This document shows positions 3,001 to 15,000 of a stretch of 40,119 bases of DNA, piece by piece. Position 1 is the stretch's first letter; each line of letters opens with the position of its first letter. This DNA comes from Trueperaceae bacterium (GTDB lineage Bacteria > Deinococcota > Deinococci > Deinococcales > Trueperaceae). The position numbers are program-made. The stretch spans positions 1 to 40,119 of the forward strand of contig DASSXV010000086.1 in the NCBI GenBank assembly GCA_035703635.1, read 5' to 3'.

Positions 3001-6000
3001 TCGCGCGGCGTTCGCTGGCTTCGAACCAGAGACCGTCGCACGCTTCGACGATGCGCGCACCCTTCAACTCATGCAAGACGCTGGCATCGTGCGCAATCGC
3101 CGCAAGATCGAGGCGACTGTCGCCAACGCGCGCGCCACCATCGCCATGCGGGAGGAAGGCGGCCTCGAACGCCTCGTCTGGTCGTTCGAGCCGACCGCCG
3201 GGGCGGCACAAGCAGCCGCGCGGGCGGCCACCGTGTCGCCAGAGTCAACGGCGCTCTCCAAGGCGCTACGCGCCAGAGGGTTCAAGTTCGTAGGCCCAAC
3301 CACCATGCACGCCTTCATGCAGGCGGCAGGAGTGATCGACGTGCACCCATCAGGGAGGGAGCGCTGACGACGCCCGCCAGCCGCGTTCAGCTGCCCCGGA
3401 CGCTGTTCTGATAGTGTCGCCCCATGAGATCAGGAATTACGGGGGGCGTCGTGAATGAAGGCGTGACGGGAGTAGTTAAGGGTGCCGCGGTCAAGGGCGC
3501 GCCAACACTGGTGATGAGGCGCCTGCTACTTACGCTGGTGGCGATCTGCACCTGCGCTTACGGCGCTGCCGCTTTCGCACAAGACGGCGCGGGCGAACCA
3601 GAAGAAACCTTCGCAGAAGGCCAGTTCGCGGCGGTGGAGCGCGACCTGGCTAACGAGGCCGCACCAGCCGTCTTCGCCGTTGGCCTCTCAGCCGGCTTCC
3701 CCGCCTACCAGACGGTTGCGCTGAACGTCTCGCTTCAAGCGCAGTTCGTAGGCGCGCAACTCAAGGGAAGCTGGACCCCCGCCGGCGTGTACTTGGGCGG
3801 CCAACTGCGCGCCTACCCGCCCATCCCTGTGCCGATCCCCCTGTACGTTGGCGTGGGCGGCGGAATCTACGGTCCGTTCGCGAGTTACCACTTCGCGGTC
3901 GGCACCCACGTGCCGCTTGGGACTGCCCTACGCCTCGACCTCGAAGGGGGAGTGGCGAACGTTCCGCAACTGGATAAGCGCGGCTGGGTGCCCCACCTCG
4001 CCGCTGGCATCAGTTACGCCTTCCCCGTCGAGCTGTCGGCAGCCACGGGCCCGACCTCGGCCACCGTCGGCGGCTCCGCGCCGCAGCCCGCGGCGCGCTG
4101 CGAGACCCCAAGCGAACCTAACCGCGAGCAGATCCCCGGCATCATCGATGACATGGTCGACGACTTCATCCTCAGCGCACGAGCGACCTACGGCAGCGTC
4201 TACACGGGCCTCAGCTACGGTTACAAGATCGGCAGCGTGCGCATCTCGGGCAAGACGGCCAACGTCAGCGTCAACTACTCGGGCAGCGTCACCGAGATCC
4301 TCACCGGAACCAGCCACAGCGCATCGGGCACGGCCAAAGTGCAGCTGACCTGGACCGGTTGCGCATGGGGTGGCGGCAGCATCGACTACTAACCGCCCGG
4401 CGCGCGTGGAGAAACCCACACCGGACGCGAAAATGGGTGCCACCTCACTCTTCTCACTGGCGCTGAAACGAGACTCGAAGCACGAGGGGACTGCCCTCGA
4501 AACGCGATAAAACCCGGTCTGTATCTGGGCGCCTGGGCCGGGTGGAGCGAGTGGCGCAACCGGTTCGAGTAGGCAAAGCCGCTTTTTCGTCTACATGTGC
4601 CGCAACTTGCTCCCGACAAGGCCTCGAGAAGCGGGGAAGCTGCAGATGAACGCCAAACCCGGGAGCAGCGGCAAAGCCAAGATGATCACGTTACTCATCG
4701 GCAGTTTAGTGGTGGCTCTGGCCGCTGGCTGCTCCGCGACGGCCGCGCCGCAAGTGGCCGCCGGGATGATCCTCGCCAGCCACCACGCATCGCTTGACCA
4801 AGCCTTCCCGCTCGACGGTCAGCGCGTCAACGGCGAACTCCACGTGTTCGTGACCGAACCGGAGTCGAAGCTGAAGTTCGTCGACTTCTTCGTAGAGGAC
4901 TCTGCCGGCGAGCAAGTGAGAATCCGCCGCGACGACACCGCTCCATTCACCCCCATGCCAGACGGCGAACCCCTACGCCTTGACGACCTTGGTGAGGGCA
5001 GGCACGTCATCATCGGCGAACTGCACGACCTAGACGGTGGCACCACCGTCGCGCGCGCCGAGTTCGAAGTTGCGGCCACTACGGACCAGGCGCCGCCAAC
5101 CACACCGACCGGCGAGATCTGGCGGCCGAGGCCGGGTACTTCGTGGCAGTGGCAGCTAAGCGGGAAGCTTGACCTGAGCGTAGAGGCGGACGTGTACGAC
5201 ATCGACCTCGAGCTCACGTCGGCGGAAACCATCGCGCAGCTCCACGCCGCTGGCCGCCGCGTCATCTGCTACTTCAGCGCAGGCAGCTTCGAGTCGGTCC
5301 GCTCCGACGCCGCGCTCTTCCCCGCGTCCGTGAAGGGCAAGGCGATGGACGGCTGGCCTGAGCAGTGGCTCGACATCCGCGCCATCGACGCCCTGGCACC
5401 CGTCATGCTCGGCCGCCTCGACCTAGCCAGGGCCAAGGGCTGCGATGCGGTGGAGCCAGACAACGTCGACGGCTACGCCAACGACACCGGCTTCAACCTG
5501 CGCGCCGCCGACCAGTTGGCCTACAACCGCTGGCTGGCGAACGCCGCGCACGAACGCGGCCTGGCCATAGCCCTCAAGAACGACCTCGATCAGGTGCGCG
5601 ACCTCGTCGACTACTTCGACTTCGCCATCAACGAGGAGTGCTTCAGTTGGAACGAGTGCGAGCTGCTCACGCCGTTCATTCAAGCGGGCAAGGCCGTGTT
5701 CGGCGCCGAGTACGAACTCTCGACCGGCAGTTTCTGCTCCAAAGCGATTGCATTGAACATGGACTTCATCCTGAAGGACTGGAACCTCGGTGCTGCCCGC
5801 ACCTCCTGCAGGTAGCCGCTGTTCAGCCCGGCAAGCCGGTGACGTTACGGTTCGTGACCTGGACGCGCAGCCCGAGGTGGGTGCCGCGCTGCACCGCGAA
5901 GTCCGCTAAGTCTGGCTTGTTGGCGTAATCCAGGGCGTACACCTCACGGCCCGTAGCCCGCAGTAGCCGCAGGCGGGTGGCGTTGTCGAGGAGCTCGCGG

Positions 6001-12000: not shown

Positions 12001-15000
12001 GGCTCTATCTCCCCCGCGTTGTTGGTCGCTGAGATGAGCAGCGCCTTCATCTCGACTTTGTCGCCCACCCCGAGCGGCCTCAACCACGTTTGCGGTTCGC
12101 CCTCCGGAATGGTGCCGAGGTGGAGCGGAGCGGAGTAGAACGGACCGCGTGGGACAACAACCGAGGGATTCCACGGCTCAGTCGCGTGGGTTGGCGCTGG
12201 CACTTCCTTGCGCGCGTCTTCGGCTTTGGTGACTGCGGGGCTGGTGCTGCATGCAACGAGCACGGCGGCTAGCGCAATGAACGTTATGAGCATGCGTAGC
12301 GCCGCTACCGGCACTTGTCTGCGGTTGGGGTTCCGGCCCTGCTTCACGCGGCTCACGGCTCCGTTCCGAGGTTGACGAGGCGTAACGCGCCGACTACCAG
12401 AAGCGCCGAGCTGGCGCGCGCCTGGGTCGTGGTCAGGCGCCCGAGGGTGTCGAGTGAACCCGTGCCAAAGCCAGCGTTCGTGAGTTCGGCGCGCGTAGCC
12501 TCAGGGAAGCTGAAGGCACCGAGGGAGTCGTCAGCCACGCAAGAGAAGGCAACGGTGCCGTCTGAGCCGACGAGGATGATCGCCGAGTTGGCGCCGCCGG
12601 GCGTCCAGCCGAACCGCGTATTGACCGTGATGTTCGCGGCGTCGAACCCCTGCAACGTGGGCGTCTTGCCGGTGGCGACCGTCACGTTGTTGAACGCGGG
12701 GAAAGCGCCAGTGGCTGCTAGTTGCAGAGAAAGGCCGTCGGTCGGGAGCGGCGCAAGGGCCGCTGCTAGTGAGTAGCGACCGTCCGGGCCGCGCTCTAGC
12801 GAACCGTAATCCGTGGCGCCCGTAAGGAGCTGGATGGTGCCCGCTAACAACCGATTGCCGCTGGGCGCGCCGATCACGCTGCCGCCGGTAGGGGCCGCGG
12901 CAGCCGACACGTCACACGTGCCGACTTGCGCACCGAACGGGCTGCCCATCAGCTCCTCCGCGCGCTTAGTGGTGAGCTCAACGAAGGTCGCCTGACCAGC
13001 AGGCGCCCCGACCTCAGTGGCCTGGCTGAGGAGCACCAAGCCAACGCGGTCAACGGACGCCGGGTCCGGCTGCTGCTGCGGGCGGCAACCAACTAACGTG
13101 AGGGCGAGGAGCGCCAACGCCGCCGCGGCGCCACGAGAGGACTTGCGCAAGAGTGAGTACTTCGACCGATGACTCTTCATCTACTCCGGTCCTTCCAGTC
13201 CCCGCTCGGTTGCGCTACTGGCTAGACGTGCTCCAAGCGCCCAAATTGGGAGCACGCTTCATCGCCTCGGGTTGTGAGGTTGGCCCCCCGTAACAATTGG
13301 GCCGGCTGTCTTGTTAGTGATCCTAGAGGCGAACCTCTTACAGGGCTCTTAACTCTGTGCGCTGGTGCCAGGTGCCTGGCACGGCTCGGGGGAAGCGGTC
13401 GTCTTGCCTTGTAACTACTTTGCCACAAGCGCCTGGCTAGAATCGACTTACGGTCGGGTAGCCTGGTCTTGGGCCAGCCTCGCACATCGAGCGAGCCCTA
13501 ACCTCGAGGAGGACAAGAACGATGCTGAAACGTCTGACGATCCCGGTCCTGATCACGTTGCTCGTGGTTGCCTGTCAACCGAATCCAGCGCCCGTGAAGC
13601 TATCCATCAGCTCTCGCATGCCAGCCGCCAGTGCCGCTAACGTGCCAGTAGATAGTGTCGTGGCCGTTACCTTCAACGTCGCGATCAAACTTGCGACGCT
13701 AGATGACAACTTCACCCTCTCACAGGGCGACACGCCCGTGGACGGCACCGTTGTCTACGACCCGAGCACGCGCGTAGCAACCTTTACCCCAACCGCCCCG
13801 CTGCTCAACGACACGGTTTACACCGCGACGGTGGGCGCGGCCGTCGAGAGCCACCAGGGTGCGCGCCTAGGCGCGGACTCTAAGTGGTCGTTCACCACCG
13901 CAAGCGTCGTCATCGTGCCAAGCGTCACGAGCGTAACCATCGTGGGCGGCGACTTCTCCCTCCTCCCAGCTGAAACGGAAACCCTCCTCGTTGATGTCGT
14001 AGTCGTTGATGGCGCGGACGCTGCCGTCGAGTGGACCAGCAGCGACGACACCGTTGCCACCGTCGACGCCTCAGGCGTCGTGACCGCAGTGGCGCCTGGC
14101 GCTGCCACCATCACGGCGACCAGCACCTTCGACAACACCAAGTCGGACAGCGTGACCGCAACCGTCAACCCGTCCCCGGCCGTCACCGCGGTTGAGATCG
14201 ACCAGGCCACTCCCGCCACCACCGTCGGCGGCACCGTTACCCTCACGGCCACCGTTACGGCCGTCGGCGGCGCTGACGAGAGCGTTACCTGGGCGTCCGC
14301 CGCCGACGCCGTCGCCACCGTCGACGCGGCGAGTGGCGTCGTCACCGGCGTGGCCTCAGGCACCGTCACCATCACGGCCACCAGCACCTTCGACGCCAGC
14401 GTTTCCGACACGGTCGATGTGGTCGTTGCGGAGCCGTTGAGTTACACCGCTTCCGCCTACCCAACCACAGTCGGTGCCGCCACCATCGACAACGTCATCT
14501 CTATCCTTCCGCCTACTACCACCTCCGCTGGTCATGGCGCACTGTCATACGCCCTCACTGGCGGAGCACTGCCCCCAGCGTTCGTCGTCGACAACGGTGT
14601 GATGGCACCAGAGACCTATGAGATCGTCCTCGATGAGAATACGGGCGAGATCAGGGGCAGCACCGGCTGGCCGGGCGTCTTCACCGGCACCGTGACGGTC
14701 ACGGACGAGCTCGGACAGACCGCCGACCTGACCTTCTCGATCACCGGCGTGCTCGACTTCGAGGTCTACAACTCCGAAGGCACCGCCACCCAGTCCACTT
14801 TCCCGTACACCAGCACCACCGAGACCGTGGTTCCTGGAGACCGTATCCGTGTCAGCGGCGTTGACAACACCCTGTGGTTGCCAGCCGACTTCGCTTCGGG
14901 CCTCGCCTTCTCTCTCAACTTCACTAGCGTTGTGCCAGACGCAGGTGGAGCTCTCCCGGATGAGGCATTCCTGGTCAACGCTAGCGAGGGCGTCGTAAGC

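What a model noticed while it worked through the whole genome (the two positions that open the first line are those of the whole stretch)
4491..13278. Seven c-di-GMP-II riboswitches; a Pel-like exopolysaccharide operon with no PelD found is headed by one
The genome has seven c-di-GMP-II aptamers, including two tandem pairs. All lie before genes for secreted glycoside hydrolases, polysaccharide synthesis or surface proteins. In C49:5823-13278 one aptamer heads an operon encoding a lipoprotein, an Agd3-type CBM87 protein, PelF, an 11-helix membrane protein and a GH114-like protein. A second aptamer heads the convergent GH114 gene. No PelD-type receptor domain was found.
Evidence so far: - **Aptamers.** RF01786 matches of 59-73 bits at C49:4491-4572, 13194-13278, 26413-26497 and 26546-26631; C53:73761-73844 and 73928-74011; and C23:83792-83876. 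- **Downstream genes.** GH114 at 9.5e-84, CBM87_Agd3 at 30.9 bits, and DUF3492 plus GT4. PelF NF038011 at 178.4 bits against a cut-off of 100. Eleven predicted transmembrane segments. - **PelD.** PF16963 was not found. - **Relatives.** In the order sample, 29 of 41 genomes have 0-7 copies, and G000 has the most.
(Added by a program. Inside this text positions count along the whole contig: contig position 1 is position 1 of the stretch shown here. "Call 12" and the like, gene names such as g00115 and contig names such as C1 are that model's own, and its searches are not shown. The text may have been shortened before it was handed on; [...] marks where a part breaks off. The agent that wrote the report below was given it as the finding of a first reader that could run no searches.)

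Follow-up and report, generated by a model that had tools for sequence, protein, structure and literature searches.

The report
c-di-GMP riboswitches on Pel/GAG-like operon
Two genuine c-di-GMP-sensing RNA switches sit in front of a sugar-polymer (biofilm matrix) synthesis operon and of the enzyme that cuts that polymer, in an uncultured Trueperaceae bacterium, so control that other bacteria exert through a protein receptor appears here to be exerted at the RNA level.

Summary
Rfam finds four c-di-GMP-II aptamers in the window and seven in the genome, at the stated coordinates. Covariation across 19 copies supports the fold, pseudoknot included.

The minus-strand operon encodes:
- a lipoprotein of a narrow, unnamed family;
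- an Agd3-type CE18/CBM87 deacetylase with its catalytic motifs intact;
- PelF;
- a membrane protein outside Pfam with a MOP (MurJ/Wzx/MATE) fold, that is, a PelG analogue;
- a leaderless protein like the PelA hydrolase domain.

The convergent gene is an Ega3-type GH114 enzyme.

This is the "bacterial agd3 operon" already described by Bamford 2020, not a canonical pel operon. No PelD or PelG was found in any homologous cluster examined across the order, with or without a riboswitch.

The riboswitch link is new in the literature I could search. It is confined to one Trueperaceae subclade. Syntenic operons L053 and L055 lack it, and one same-genus genome lacks the operon.

The start codon lies 13-14 nt after the aptamer in 7 of 7 operon leaders, which implies translational control. 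Polarity (ON or OFF) could not be settled by computation. "G000 has the most copies" is wrong: relatives have up to 11.

Verdict: a real new instance of known kinds, of moderate interest.

The parts
13194..13278 (-). c-di-GMP-II aptamer heading the polysaccharide operon
   Evidence: RF01786, 59.2 bits, E 8.2e-11, full model 1-84. It aligns with 18 other copies. P1b, P2 and the pseudoknot are kept. It has U at window 13224, where 18 of 19 copies have G.
13181..13197 (-). Ribosome-binding region directly abutting the aptamer (AAGGA, then 9 nt, then ATG at 13180)
   Evidence: In 7 of 7 operon-heading leaders the ATG lies 13-14 nt after the aptamer end. AAGG(A/G) starts 4-6 nt after the inner P1 3' strand. 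No terminator-like site lies in the leader.
12353..13180 (-). First operon gene: 275-aa lipoprotein (lipobox LVGC) of a narrow unnamed family
   Evidence: No Pfam or NCBIfam family matches. Only 12 homologues were found in 5.8 billion clusters. Atlas neighbours are all hypothetical proteins. Its stop overlaps the next gene's start (GTGA). Homologues were detected only in the Trueperaceae loci with this gene order, including L053, which has no aptamer.
9366..12356 (-). 996-aa Agd3-type deacetylase: CBM87, CE18 domain, Ig-like repeats; probable lipoprotein (LVAC)
   Evidence: CBM87_Agd3 30.9 bits; Agd3_CE 23.0 bits, below the 27.6 cut-off. The family profile A2 matches Agd3 (PDB 6NWZ) at 4.6e-37 and nothing else significant. 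The columns for DVDDWF (D332, D334, D335), HTWSH (H428, H432), PRWPT and FH..N (H618, N621) are invariant or nearly so. Relatives score 38-57 bits on Agd3_CE.
7839..9299 (-). PelF-type cytoplasmic GT4 glycosyltransferase (true start probably the ATG 45 nt into the ORF)
   Evidence: NF038011 PelF equivalog, 178.3 bits against a cut-off of 100. DUF3492 1.3e-44 plus Glycos_transf_1. The alignment with relatives starts at M16.
6517..7842 (-). 441-aa membrane protein: conserved cytoplasmic N-terminal domain (about residues 1-95) plus a MOP-superfamily transporter fold; PelG analogue
   Evidence: No Pfam or NCBIfam family matches. The AF2 model has pLDDT 83.9. The top 14 VIA-align matches are all MATE, MurJ or WzxE, with Z 18.3-10.9 over residues about 100-441; the next match has Z 6.8. 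Foldseek's top matches are MurJ and WzxE but weak, E 0.024. Its start overlaps the PelF stop (GTGA). It lies next to PelF in all 19 loci that contain the cluster, and in Streptomyces.
5823..6536 (-). 237-aa TIM-barrel protein like the PelA hydrolase domain, with no signal peptide
   Evidence: PDB 5TCB PelA 2.9e-15; 9CGY PelA 3.4e-11; GH114 entry 9EP5 only 9.8e-5. Pfam GH114 scores 20.7 bits, below the cut-off of 27. It overlaps the preceding gene by 20 nt.
4491..4572 (+). c-di-GMP-II aptamer heading the convergent GH114 gene
   Evidence: RF01786, 65.3 bits, E 1.5e-12. Homologous aptamers precede the orthologous gene in G086, G076, G046, L052 and L054.
4573..4645 (+). About 73-nt leader between the aptamer and the likely start codon of the GH114 gene
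   Evidence: The likely start is the ATG at 4646, preceded by GGGGAAG. It gives a lipoprotein signal ending LAAGC. Orthologous leaders are 73-81 nt long. An upstream hairpin that sequesters the P1 5' strand is conserved in 6 of 6 leaders, as is a small hairpin over the G-rich ribosome-binding site.
4595..5815 (+). Ega3-type GH114 endo-alpha-1,4-polygalactosaminidase, lipoprotein
   Evidence: PF03537 1.1e-83. PDB 6OJB/6OJ1 'Endo alpha-1,4 polygalactosaminidase' 7.3e-57. The DNVDGY and NE(E/Q)C motifs align. Its stop codon lies 7 nt from the stop of the convergent operon.

Best explanation
Window 4491-13278 holds two convergent transcription units. Each is headed by a functional c-di-GMP-II riboswitch.

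**The two units.** The minus-strand unit is a five-gene operon:
- a lipoprotein;
- an Agd3-type CE18/CBM87 de-N-acetylase;
- the PelF glycosyltransferase;
- a MOP-fold exporter with an extra N-terminal cytoplasmic domain;
- a leaderless protein like the PelA hydrolase domain.

The plus-strand unit is one gene for an Ega3-type GH114 endo-alpha-1,4-galactosaminidase lipoprotein.

**What they make (inferred from family functions).** Together they form the Deinococcota version of the "bacterial agd3 operon". I infer the following steps:
1. PelF polymerises an alpha-1,4-GalNAc-rich chain in the cytoplasm.
2. The MOP-fold protein exports it.
3. The surface-anchored Agd3-type enzyme partly de-N-acetylates it, giving a cationic, adhesive Pel/GAG-like matrix polymer.
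4. The GH114 enzyme trims it.

**How it is controlled.** No PelD-like c-di-GMP receptor is encoded with the system, and the genome has no PilZ domain. It does have 11 GGDEF domains. I therefore infer that c-di-GMP acts here on the mRNA.

In the operon leader the Shine-Dalgarno sequence starts 4-6 nt after helix P1, and the ATG lies 13-14 nt after the aptamer. No terminator is present. Ligand-dependent folding of the aptamer would therefore govern translation initiation of the first gene. Through the overlapping start and stop codons and mRNA stability it would also govern the rest of the operon.

**Polarity.** I take the operon switch to be ON with c-di-GMP, at about 60%. That figure is an inference.

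**Shown versus inferred.** Shown: aptamer identity, gene identities, gene order, leader geometry and phylogenetic distribution. Inferred: ligand response, polarity, polymer chemistry and co-transcription.
For: **Aptamers.**
- All matches exceed the gathering score, 4 in the window and 7 in the genome.
- Across 19 copies, 92.5% of cells pair, against 28.6-41.9% when partners are slid by 1-3 columns.
- 17 of 21 pairs change on both sides. The 5-bp pseudoknot is 100% paired, and 3 of its pairs covary.

**Genes.**
- PelF: 178.3 bits against a cut-off of 100.
- Deacetylase: the family profile matches Agd3 (6NWZ) at 4.6e-37, with the catalytic motif columns invariant.
- GH114 gene: Ega3 (6OJB) at 7.3e-57.
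- Last operon gene: PelA hydrolase domain (5TCB) at 2.9e-15.
- Membrane protein: MOP fold, top 14 structural matches at Z 18.3-10.9, then 6.8.

**Operon structure.**
- GTGA overlaps at two junctions and a 20-nt overlap at a third.
- Terminator-like sites are no more frequent than in shuffles: 5 found, 5.9 expected.
- The same gene order occurs in G086, G076, G046, L052, L053, L054 and L055.

**Leader geometry.** It is conserved in 7 of 7 operon leaders.

**Conserved linkage.** Aptamers head both the operon and the GH114 gene in G000, G086, G076, G046 and L052. In L054 an aptamer heads the GH114 gene, and the operon head lies off the contig.

**c-di-GMP signalling in the genome.**
- 11 GGDEF matches.
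- 7 EAL matches.
- 0 PilZ, with the control ringing in 5 of 14 genomes.

**Literature.** Bacterial agd3 operons are described with a cytoplasmic glycosyltransferase, a multi-spanning membrane protein and GH114 in PMC7229062 (passages read).
Against: **Polarity and mechanism are not shown.**
- Thermodynamic modelling of ribosome-binding-site accessibility, with and without the aptamer enforced, gave small and inconsistent differences in 6 operon leaders and 6 GH114 leaders.
- RNAalifold found no conserved helix over the operon ribosome-binding site.

**The window's operon aptamer deviates.** It is the weakest copy (59.2 bits). It has U where 18 of 19 copies have G.

**PelD absence is only weakly shown.**
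- The Pfam control rang nowhere.
- Whitfield 2020 reports that HMMER cannot recognise B. cereus PelD with PF16963 (PMC7112168, passage read).
- The conserved N-terminal domain of the membrane protein has no known function. It could be a protein-level regulator.

**Riboswitch control is not required for this operon type.** Syntenic operons in L053 and L055 have no aptamer even with filters off; the best score is 13.5 bits.

**Transcription is not shown.** Contigs from RNA libraries cover the region. One spans the convergent genes and another spans the divergent promoter, so they may be DNA.

**Polymer chemistry is untested.** It rests on homology alone. This operon carries none of the epimerase or nucleotidyl-transferase genes seen in other genera.
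Confidence: 0.7

Rival explanations
1. The operon riboswitch is an OFF switch. Ligand-stabilised P1 and the compact pseudoknotted aptamer, only 4-6 nt from the Shine-Dalgarno sequence, hinder 30S binding. High c-di-GMP then lowers synthesis of this polymer, perhaps in favour of the second EPS cluster in the window.
For: - The ribosome-binding site directly abuts P1.
- No conserved anti-SD or anti-P1 helix was found that would make the apo form the closed one.
- In 2 of 6 operon leaders the modelled ribosome-binding site was less accessible with the aptamer sequestered.
Against: - In 4 of 6 leaders the modelled accessibility rose with the aptamer sequestered.
- In 3 of 6 leaders, the minimum-free-energy fold computed with 10 nt of upstream flank pairs the P1 3' strand with a CCCG/CCGG just after the ribosome-binding site, which would close it in the apo form. 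Without that flank, only G076_op1 and G046_op1 show the hairpin.
- By biological logic, c-di-GMP usually promotes matrix production.
- From memory, not from any call: characterised class II switches in Clostridioides difficile are ON switches.
Confidence: 0.2
2. The two switches have opposite polarity: synthesis operon ON and GH114 hydrolase OFF. This would be an RNA-only push-pull circuit. The hydrolase would then be a dispersal enzyme made at low c-di-GMP.
For: - The GH114 leaders have a quite different platform, about 73-81 nt long.
- In 6 of 6, a conserved upstream hairpin competes for the P1 5' strand.
- In 6 of 6, a small hairpin covers the G-rich ribosome-binding site. One of its pairs changes on both sides.
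- Its 5' arm resembles the P1 5' strand, so it could pair with the P1 3' strand in the apo form. This last point comes from my own reading.
Against: - Modelled accessibility is inconsistent. Unconstrained against aptamer-enforced values for the 6 leaders were 0.50/0.50, 0.32/0.11, 0.20/0.44, 0.44/0.37, 0.47/0.27 and 0.73/0.73.
- In fungi ega3 is co-regulated with agd3 (PMC7229062, passage read). Co-induction as a processing enzyme is therefore equally plausible.
Confidence: 0.3
3. A protein-level c-di-GMP receptor exists but was missed. It could be a divergent PelD elsewhere in the genome, or the conserved N-terminal cytoplasmic domain of the MOP-fold protein. Control would then be dual, as in other EPS systems, and the riboswitch would only add a layer.
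For: - The PF16963 control rang nowhere.
- HMMER fails to recognise known Gram-positive PelD (PMC7112168).
- The N-terminal domain is conserved across the family, with E26, R28 and R38 nearly invariant and A55, E58 and G61 invariant. It has no known fold assignment, because structural matches cover only residues 102-441.
- Relatives without a riboswitch must be regulated in some way.
Against: - All 11 GGDEF matches are strong (at least 103.7 bits), and none lies on this contig.
- No gene in the operon has a TM-GAF-GGDEF layout.
- No c-di-GMP-binding motif was identified in the N-terminal domain. This rests on my inspection only.
Confidence: 0.2
4. The aptamers are decayed or retuned copies that no longer sense c-di-GMP.
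For: - The operon copy has the lowest score. It carries a U-for-G change at a nearly invariant position.
- Lower-scoring overlapping matches to other families of clan CL00127 were reported but not shown: 5 in the window.
Against: - All seven copies exceed the gathering score with full-length matches.
- RF01786 was the best clan member at every site.
- Covariation maintains all helices.
- The position in front of orthologous genes is conserved in six genomes or contigs.
Confidence: 0.05

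Closest known systems
c-di-GMP-II riboswitch (Rfam RF01786), including tandem arrangements (Sherlock et al. 2022, PMC9481103)
   Same: - Full-length matches above the gathering score.
- P1, P1b, P2 and the pseudoknot are kept with covariation.
- Tandem doublets occur, as reported in the paper: 59 doublets and 9 triplets (passage read).
- Downstream genes encode surface and secreted proteins.
   Different: - The published tandem examples are mostly in Paraclostridium, before a surface anchor protein. Here the host is a high-GC Trueperaceae bacterium.
- The operon copies have no separate expression platform: the ATG lies 13-14 nt after the aptamer.
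- The regulated genes are a synthase-type EPS operon and its hydrolase. My searches found no report of this.
Bacterial agd3 operons and the fungal galactosaminogalactan (GAG) cluster (Bamford et al. 2020, PMC7229062)
   Same: - An Agd3-type CE18 plus CBM87 deacetylase, a cytoplasmic glycosyltransferase, a multi-spanning membrane protein and a GH114 ega3 homologue.
- The paper names Deinococcus-Thermus and Actinobacteria among the hosts (passages read).
- One relative, L045, also has a spherulin-4 (Sph3-like) gene.
   Different: - The passages I read mention no riboswitch or c-di-GMP control.
- Here the glycosyltransferase is specifically PelF, and the membrane protein has a MOP fold.
- This subclade adds a lipoprotein gene and lacks the epimerase and nucleotidyl-transferase genes found in other genera.
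- I did not open the paper's supplementary species and operon lists.
Pel systems: P. aeruginosa pelABCDEFG and Gram-positive pelDEA(DA)FG (Whitfield et al. 2020, PMC7112168; PMC13254593)
   Same: - PelF.
- A separate gene like the PelA hydrolase domain, matching the pelAH accessory gene named in Whitfield's S3 figure legend.
- An extracellular three-domain deacetylase. PelA(DA) is described as reminiscent of Agd3.
- An exporter of the same fold superfamily. That PelG is a MOP-type protein is from memory, not from any call.
   Different: - No PelD or PelE.
- The membrane protein does not match PF16933 in any of 73 family members scanned or in any of 101 genomes of the order above the cut-off.
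- The deacetylase is CE18/CBM87, not CE26/CBM114 (B. cereus) and not the PelA type.
- c-di-GMP input is by riboswitch. In Pel systems it is by the PelD I-site.

Membership tests
c-di-GMP-II riboswitch (RF01786) | Covariance-model score at or above the curated gathering score over the full model | tested here: met
   59.2-73.1 bits against 53.5, model positions 1-84 of 84, for all 7 genome copies.
c-di-GMP-II riboswitch (RF01786) | Helices P1, P1b and P2 and the loop-to-3'-tail pseudoknot are maintained by compensatory changes | tested here: met
   19 copies were compared. 92.5% of cells pair, against 28.6-41.9% when slid. 17 of 21 pairs change on both sides. The pseudoknot is 100% paired with 3 covarying pairs. 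P1 pairs less well (84.2%) because the operon copies have one extra nucleotide.
c-di-GMP-II riboswitch (RF01786) | Binds c-di-GMP and changes gene expression | not testable with these tools
Modelling of polarity was inconclusive.
Pel biosynthesis system | PelF glycosyltransferase | tested here: met
   NF038011 equivalog, 178.3 bits against a cut-off of 100; DUF3492 plus GT4.
Pel biosynthesis system | PelG (PF16933) membrane component | tested here: not met
   - No PF16933 match in the protein or in the genome (the control rang in Thermotoga maritima).
- None in 33 plus 40 family members.
- None of 101 genomes of the order has a match over the cut-off.
- The fold is nevertheless MOP-type, so it works like PelG without being a recognisable member.
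Pel biosynthesis system | PelD c-di-GMP receptor (TM, GAF and degenerate GGDEF domains) | tested here: inconclusive
   - PF16963 was not found, but the control rang in none of 14 genomes.
- All 11 GGDEF matches lie on other contigs and are canonical in strength.
- No operon gene has that architecture.
- Known Gram-positive PelD escapes HMMER (PMC7112168).
Pel biosynthesis system | PelE, and the outer-membrane parts PelB and PelC | not tested
   I ran no model for these families. By inspection, the operon has no small TM/TPR protein. The 275-aa lipoprotein has no detectable family, and its model was unusable, with pLDDT 43.0.
Bacterial agd3 / GAG-like cluster (Bamford 2020) | Agd3-type deacetylase with CBM87 and a CE18 domain carrying the catalytic motifs | tested here: met
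   - CBM87: 30.9 bits against a cut-off of 27.6.
- The profile of 10 family members matches 6NWZ at 4.6e-37 across the CBM, CE and C-terminal domains.
- The Asp-Asp, His-x3-His, PRWPT and FH..N columns are invariant or nearly so.
Bacterial agd3 / GAG-like cluster (Bamford 2020) | Cytoplasmic glycosyltransferase plus a multi-spanning membrane protein in the same cluster | tested here: met
   PelF and the 441-aa membrane protein are adjacent, with overlapping stop and start codons.
Bacterial agd3 / GAG-like cluster (Bamford 2020) | GH114 ega3 homologue in or next to the cluster | tested here: met
   PF03537 1.1e-83; Ega3 (6OJB) 7.3e-57; convergent, 7 nt from the operon's end.
Bacterial agd3 / GAG-like cluster (Bamford 2020) | Produces an alpha-1,4-GalNAc/GalN polymer | not testable with these tools
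   Inferred only from the enzyme families. No sugar-nucleotide epimerase gene lies in this window.

The most novel reading that the evidence does not exclude
In one Trueperaceae subclade, c-di-GMP control of a cationic Pel/GAG-like matrix polymer is carried entirely by RNA. One riboswitch turns translation of the synthesis, export and deacetylation operon ON. A differently built copy turns the polymer-cutting GH114 enzyme OFF. The two convergent units end 7 nt apart and so also interfere with each other by transcription. The genome has no PilZ and no PelD, so its seven riboswitches would be the main c-di-GMP effectors. The Pfam-less MOP-fold exporter, through its conserved N-terminal domain, would take over the PelF-docking role of PelD and PelE. 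Natural relatives with the same operon but no riboswitch (L053, L055) offer a ready comparison.
Probability: 0.15. Interest if true: 0.7.

Novelty: new member of a known kind. Interest (0 to 1): 0.45.

Why it matters
Synthase-type biofilm polysaccharides are the textbook case of post-translational c-di-GMP control, through PilZ domains or PelD.

This locus offers a natural case of the same signal wired at the mRNA level. The switch sits on a system that has PelF but no recognisable receptor. A second switch sits on the matching hydrolase.

It also gives a regulatory handle on the "bacterial agd3 operons", which have been noted only by bioinformatics.

It singles out an uncharacterised membrane-protein family as the PelF partner in Deinococcota and Actinomycetota. 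That family has 865 representatives at E up to 0.001 and no Pfam model.

The leaders are short, 85-nt aptamers with the start codon 13-14 nt behind. They can be tested directly in vitro even though the organism is uncultured.

Tried and rejected
1. **Polarity from folding.** I compared unconstrained and aptamer-sequestered ensembles for 6 operon leaders and 6 GH114 leaders. I also ran RNAalifold on 7 and 6 leaders. None gave a consistent answer, so polarity is left open.
2. **Lipoprotein identity.** Pfam and NCBIfam gave nothing. The Atlas gave only hypothetical proteins. Only 12 homologues were found. The AF2 model has pLDDT 43.0 and is unusable, so no fold search was made.
3. **PelF with the N-terminal domain of the membrane protein (complex prediction).** The job was never accepted because the queue was full at every attempt. 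There is no result of any kind.
4. **Expression evidence.**
   - Contigs from four RNA libraries of two studies cover 25-30 of 30 bins. They bridge the aptamer-lipoprotein, lipoprotein-Agd3, Agd3-PelF and membrane protein-PelAh junctions.
   - One contig spans the convergent gene pair, and another runs on across the divergent promoter.
   - DNA carry-over therefore cannot be excluded. I do not count this as evidence of transcription or of an operon.
5. **Foldseek against PDB for the membrane protein.** There was no match at E up to 0.001. The top rows were MurJ and WzxE at E 0.024. The assignment rests on VIA-align.
6. **Guessed NCBIfam accessions for PelD and PelG.** These turned out to be unrelated families and are of no use.
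7. **c-di-GMP-I (RF01051).** It was not found, but the control rang nowhere, so this shows nothing.
8. **First PelF tree.** It used a wrong-strand ORF for L054 and is disregarded. It was redone.
10. **phmmer of the Agd3-like protein alone against PDB.** This gave nothing. Only the family profile reached Agd3.

Full report
**1. The observation**

An Rfam scan of the 40,119-base window gives four c-di-GMP-II (RF01786) matches above the gathering score of 53.5 bits:
- 4491-4572 (+), 65.3 bits
- 13194-13278 (-), 59.2 bits
- 26413-26497 (+), 62.4 bits
- 26546-26631 (+), 62.6 bits

All four cover model positions 1-84. Their E-values run from 1.5e-12 to 8.2e-11.

I aligned 19 copies from this genome and three same-genus genomes. 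I then counted pairs for P1, P1b, P2 and the loop-to-tail pseudoknot:
- 92.5% of 399 cells pair, against 28.6-41.9% when the 3' partners are slid by 1-3 columns.
- 17 of 21 pairs change on both sides.
- The 5-bp pseudoknot pairs in 100% of cells, and three of its pairs covary.

These are real, maintained aptamers.

One caveat concerns the operon copy in this window. It is the weakest of the seven, and it has U at window 13224 where the other 18 copies have G.

**2. The genes**

On the plus strand, the aptamer at 4491-4572 precedes a GH114 gene.
- PF03537 scores 1.1e-83.
- The nearest solved relative is Ega3, the endo-alpha-1,4-polygalactosaminidase of the fungal GAG cluster (6OJB, 7.3e-57). 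The DNVDGY and NE(E/Q)C motifs align.
- The likely start is the ATG at 4646, not 4595. It follows GGGGAAG and gives a lipoprotein signal ending LAAGC.

On the minus strand, the aptamer at 13278-13194 is followed by five genes.

| Gene (window) | Product | Key evidence |
|---|---|---|
| 13180-12353 | 275-aa lipoprotein, no family |; only 12 homologues |
| 12356-9366 | 996-aa Agd3-type protein | See below |
| 9299-7839 | PelF | NF038011, 178.3 bits against 100; DUF3492 plus GT4 |
| 7842-6517 | 441-aa membrane protein | See below |
| 6536-5823 | 237-aa PelA-hydrolase-like protein | See below |

*The Agd3-type protein.*
- CBM87 scores 30.9 bits.
- Agd3_CE scores 23.0 bits, below its cut-off of 27.6.
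- phmmer of the single protein against PDB finds nothing.
- A profile of ten family members matches Agd3 (6NWZ) at 4.6e-37, and nothing else significant. The match covers the CBM, the esterase domain and the C-terminal domain.
- The columns for DVDDWF, HTxxH, PRWPT and FH..N are invariant or nearly so.
- The enzyme is therefore very probably an active CE18 de-N-acetylase.

*The membrane protein.*
- It matches no Pfam or NCBIfam family. Neither do 33 aligned relatives or 40 further family representatives.
- The family has 865 representatives at E up to 0.001 among 1.84 billion.
- An AlphaFold2 model from a 33-sequence alignment has pLDDT 83.9.
- Foldseek gives only weak matches, with MurJ and WzxE first at E 0.024.
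- VIA-align against 48,161 chains puts 14 MOP-superfamily transporters (MATE, MurJ, WzxE) on top. Their Z-scores are 18.3-10.9 over residues about 100-441. The next match has Z 6.8.
- Residues 1-95 form an extra conserved cytoplasmic helical domain with no assignment.

*The last gene.*
- It resembles the PelA hydrolase domain (5TCB, 2.9e-15) more than GH114 (9EP5, 9.8e-5).
- It has no signal peptide.

*Operon structure.*
- GTGA start-stop overlaps occur at two junctions, and a 20-nt overlap at a third.
- Terminator-like sites are no more frequent than in shuffles: 5 found, 5.9 expected.
- The gene order is conserved in relatives.
- Together these support a single operon. Transcript evidence is lacking (see section 6).

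**3. What kind of system this is**

The gene set matches the "bacterial agd3 operons" that Bamford et al. 2020 found by bioinformatics. I read passages only, and did not see the supplements (PMC7229062). That paper reports:
- Agd3 homologues in 30 Terrabacteria, including Actinobacteria and Deinococcus-Thermus;
- a GH114 ega3 homologue in most;
- spherulin-4 genes in some.

The cluster is widespread in the order.
- A search with the Agd3-like protein found matches in 61 of 101 genomes. Many of these are only to its Ig-like repeats.
- I fetched 20 stretches around the strong matches.
- 19 of the 20 contain PelF, the membrane protein's N-terminal part, the Agd3 type or the PelA-hydrolase-like gene in some order.
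- Other genera often add dehydratase, nucleotidyl-transferase and epimerase genes. One locus adds a spherulin-4 gene.

Canonical PelG (PF16933) does not exceed its cut-off in any of 101 genomes.

No PelD, GGDEF or PilZ domain turned up in the 43 neighbouring proteins scanned from eight of these loci.

The system therefore works like Pel/GAG. It passes the membership test only for PelF, for the PelA-hydrolase-like domain and for the agd3-operon definition.

Compared with Gram-positive pelDEA(DA)FG:
- it lacks PelD and PelE;
- it uses a CE18 deacetylase, where B. cereus has CE26/CBM114 (PMC13254593 and PMC7112168, passages read).

Record titles of the closest public contigs place the lineage in Trueperaceae, within Deinococcota. 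The PelF plus membrane-protein pair is also adjacent in Streptomyces and Streptacidiphilus loci.

**4. Distribution of the riboswitch link**

c-di-GMP-II aptamers are common in the order. 81 of 101 genomes have a match, 67 of them over the cut-off, with up to 11 per genome. G000 is therefore not exceptional.

Next to the agd3 cluster, however, they occur only in a narrow group.
- Among the 20 fetched stretches, all 12 matches lie in the six stretches from the three same-genus genomes. None lies in the 14 stretches from 14 genomes of other genera.
- With a covariance model built from the 19 copies, two further public contigs are positive. L052 has an aptamer on both units. L054 has one on the GH114 gene, and its operon head lies off the contig.
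- The fully syntenic L053 is negative even with filters off, as are L055 and L056. The best score there is 13.5 bits, E 0.15. L053 has lipoprotein, Agd3, PelF, membrane protein and PelAh genes, plus the convergent GH114.

A quick PelF tree places these loci as follows:
- The five operons with an aptamer form a supported clade (SH-aLRT 99).
- That clade lies inside a supported clade of eight (98), with L054 and the two aptamer-free loci.
- One origin is not excluded.
- An earlier tree had a wrong ORF for one row and is disregarded.

Other points on distribution:
- G076 and G046 carry two lipoprotein-Agd3 units in tandem, each with its own aptamer.
- One complete same-genus genome, G041, has neither Agd3 nor PelF, and has only three aptamers.

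The riboswitch is thus an addition to an operon type that lacks PelD everywhere. It is not a demonstrated substitute for a lost PelD.

**5. How it probably works**

The genome encodes 11 GGDEF and 7 EAL matches, but no PilZ domain. The PilZ control rang in 5 of 14 genomes. c-di-GMP is therefore made, and the riboswitches are plausible major effectors.

In 7 of 7 operon-heading leaders:
- the ATG lies 13-14 nt after the aptamer end;
- AAGG(A/G) begins 4-6 nt after the inner P1 3' strand;
- that motif ends 9-10 nt before the ATG.

There is no room for a terminator, and none is predicted. Control must then act on translation initiation, or on events that follow from it.

The GH114 leaders are built differently. 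They are 73-81 nt long. In 6 of 6, an upstream hairpin competes for the P1 5' strand. In 6 of 6, a small hairpin covers the G-rich ribosome-binding site.

I could not derive polarity.
- Modelled accessibility of the ribosome-binding site changes little, and in both directions.
- RNAalifold finds no conserved helix over the operon ribosome-binding site.

I favour ON for the operon, at about 60%, for three reasons:
- the usual link between c-di-GMP and matrix production;
- an apo-form hairpin between the P1 3' strand and a CCCG/CCGG just after the ribosome-binding site, seen in 3 of 6 minimum-free-energy folds computed with 10 nt of upstream flank and in only 2 of 6 without it;
- recalled behaviour of class II switches in Clostridioides difficile, which comes from memory and not from any call.

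**6. Expression data**

The stretch occurs at high identity in soil, sludge and bioreactor metagenomes. Contigs from four RNA libraries of two studies cover 25-30 of 30 bins and bridge several gene junctions.

One contig spans the convergent genes, and another continues over the divergent promoter. DNA carry-over is therefore possible, and I give this no weight.

**7. Novelty**

The riboswitch class, its tandem forms and the operon type are each in print (PMC9481103 and PMC7229062, passages read).

Full-text searches found no report of a riboswitch on a pel or agd3 operon. The term sets were:
- c-di-GMP-II with Deinococcus;
- c-di-GMP-II with exopolysaccharide;
- PelF with riboswitch;
- c-di-GMP-II with translation and Thermus.

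Subscription-only papers and supplements were not covered.

I rate this a new member of known kinds, with a new regulatory pairing, and of moderate interest.

Noticed in passing
window 15298-31831: A second EPS cluster of Wzx/Wzy type lies here. It has an AAA_31 kinase-like protein, a CE4 deacetylase, several GT4 genes, a Polysacc_synt_3 flippase, Wzy_C and two AsnB-like amidotransferases. The tandem aptamers at 26413-26631 head a Pel9A-like beta-helix protein (26668-28656) plus a GT4 (28731-29894) inside this cluster.
   Followed up: partly
window 5816-5822: The stop codons of the convergent GH114 gene and of the operon's last gene are only 7 nt apart, and no terminator is predicted between them. 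Transcripts from the two riboswitch-controlled units should run into each other in antisense.
   Followed up: no
window 5823-6536 and orthologues in L028-L056: The protein like the PelA hydrolase domain has no signal peptide. The lipoprotein, the Agd3-type enzyme (LVAC) and the GH114 enzyme (LAAGC) all have lipoboxes. A cytoplasmic glycoside hydrolase in an EPS operon is unexplained.
   Followed up: no
window 6517-7842, residues 1-95 of the product: The conserved cytoplasmic N-terminal helical domain has E26, R28 and R38 nearly invariant and A55, E58, G61, F77 and L83 invariant across 33 sequences. It also matches on its own in Streptomyces and Streptacidiphilus, next to PelF-like genes. Its function is unknown. 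It is a candidate PelF dock or regulator.
   Followed up: partly
L030 (G076:C16) 4016-11923 and L032/L033 (G046:C6): Same-genus relatives carry a second lipoprotein-Agd3 unit. Its Agd3 paralogue is extended by many (more than ten) Ig-like repeats, giving open frames of 2645-2649 aa. Each unit in G076 and G046 has its own aptamer.
   Followed up: partly
window 13224 (minus-strand aptamer position 55): The operon aptamer of this genome has U where 18 of 19 aligned copies have G, inside the conserved GAGCC junction. The effect on ligand binding is unknown.
   Followed up: no
G000 C53:73761-74011 and C23:83792-83876: The other aptamers head two tandem GH26 genes plus a glucose/sorbosone dehydrogenase, and a Big_7 surface protein followed by an FG-GAP protein. 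The whole riboswitch regulon therefore concerns the cell surface and polysaccharides.
   Followed up: yes
window 13203-13243, seen in RNA-library contigs: Depth over the aptamer bin (13129-13400) is several-fold higher than over the neighbouring bins in two of the four RNA libraries (X15 and X16). Contigs from other loci or organisms match only the conserved aptamer core. One continues into a U-rich tract, like a terminator-type c-di-GMP-II switch elsewhere in the community.
   Followed up: no
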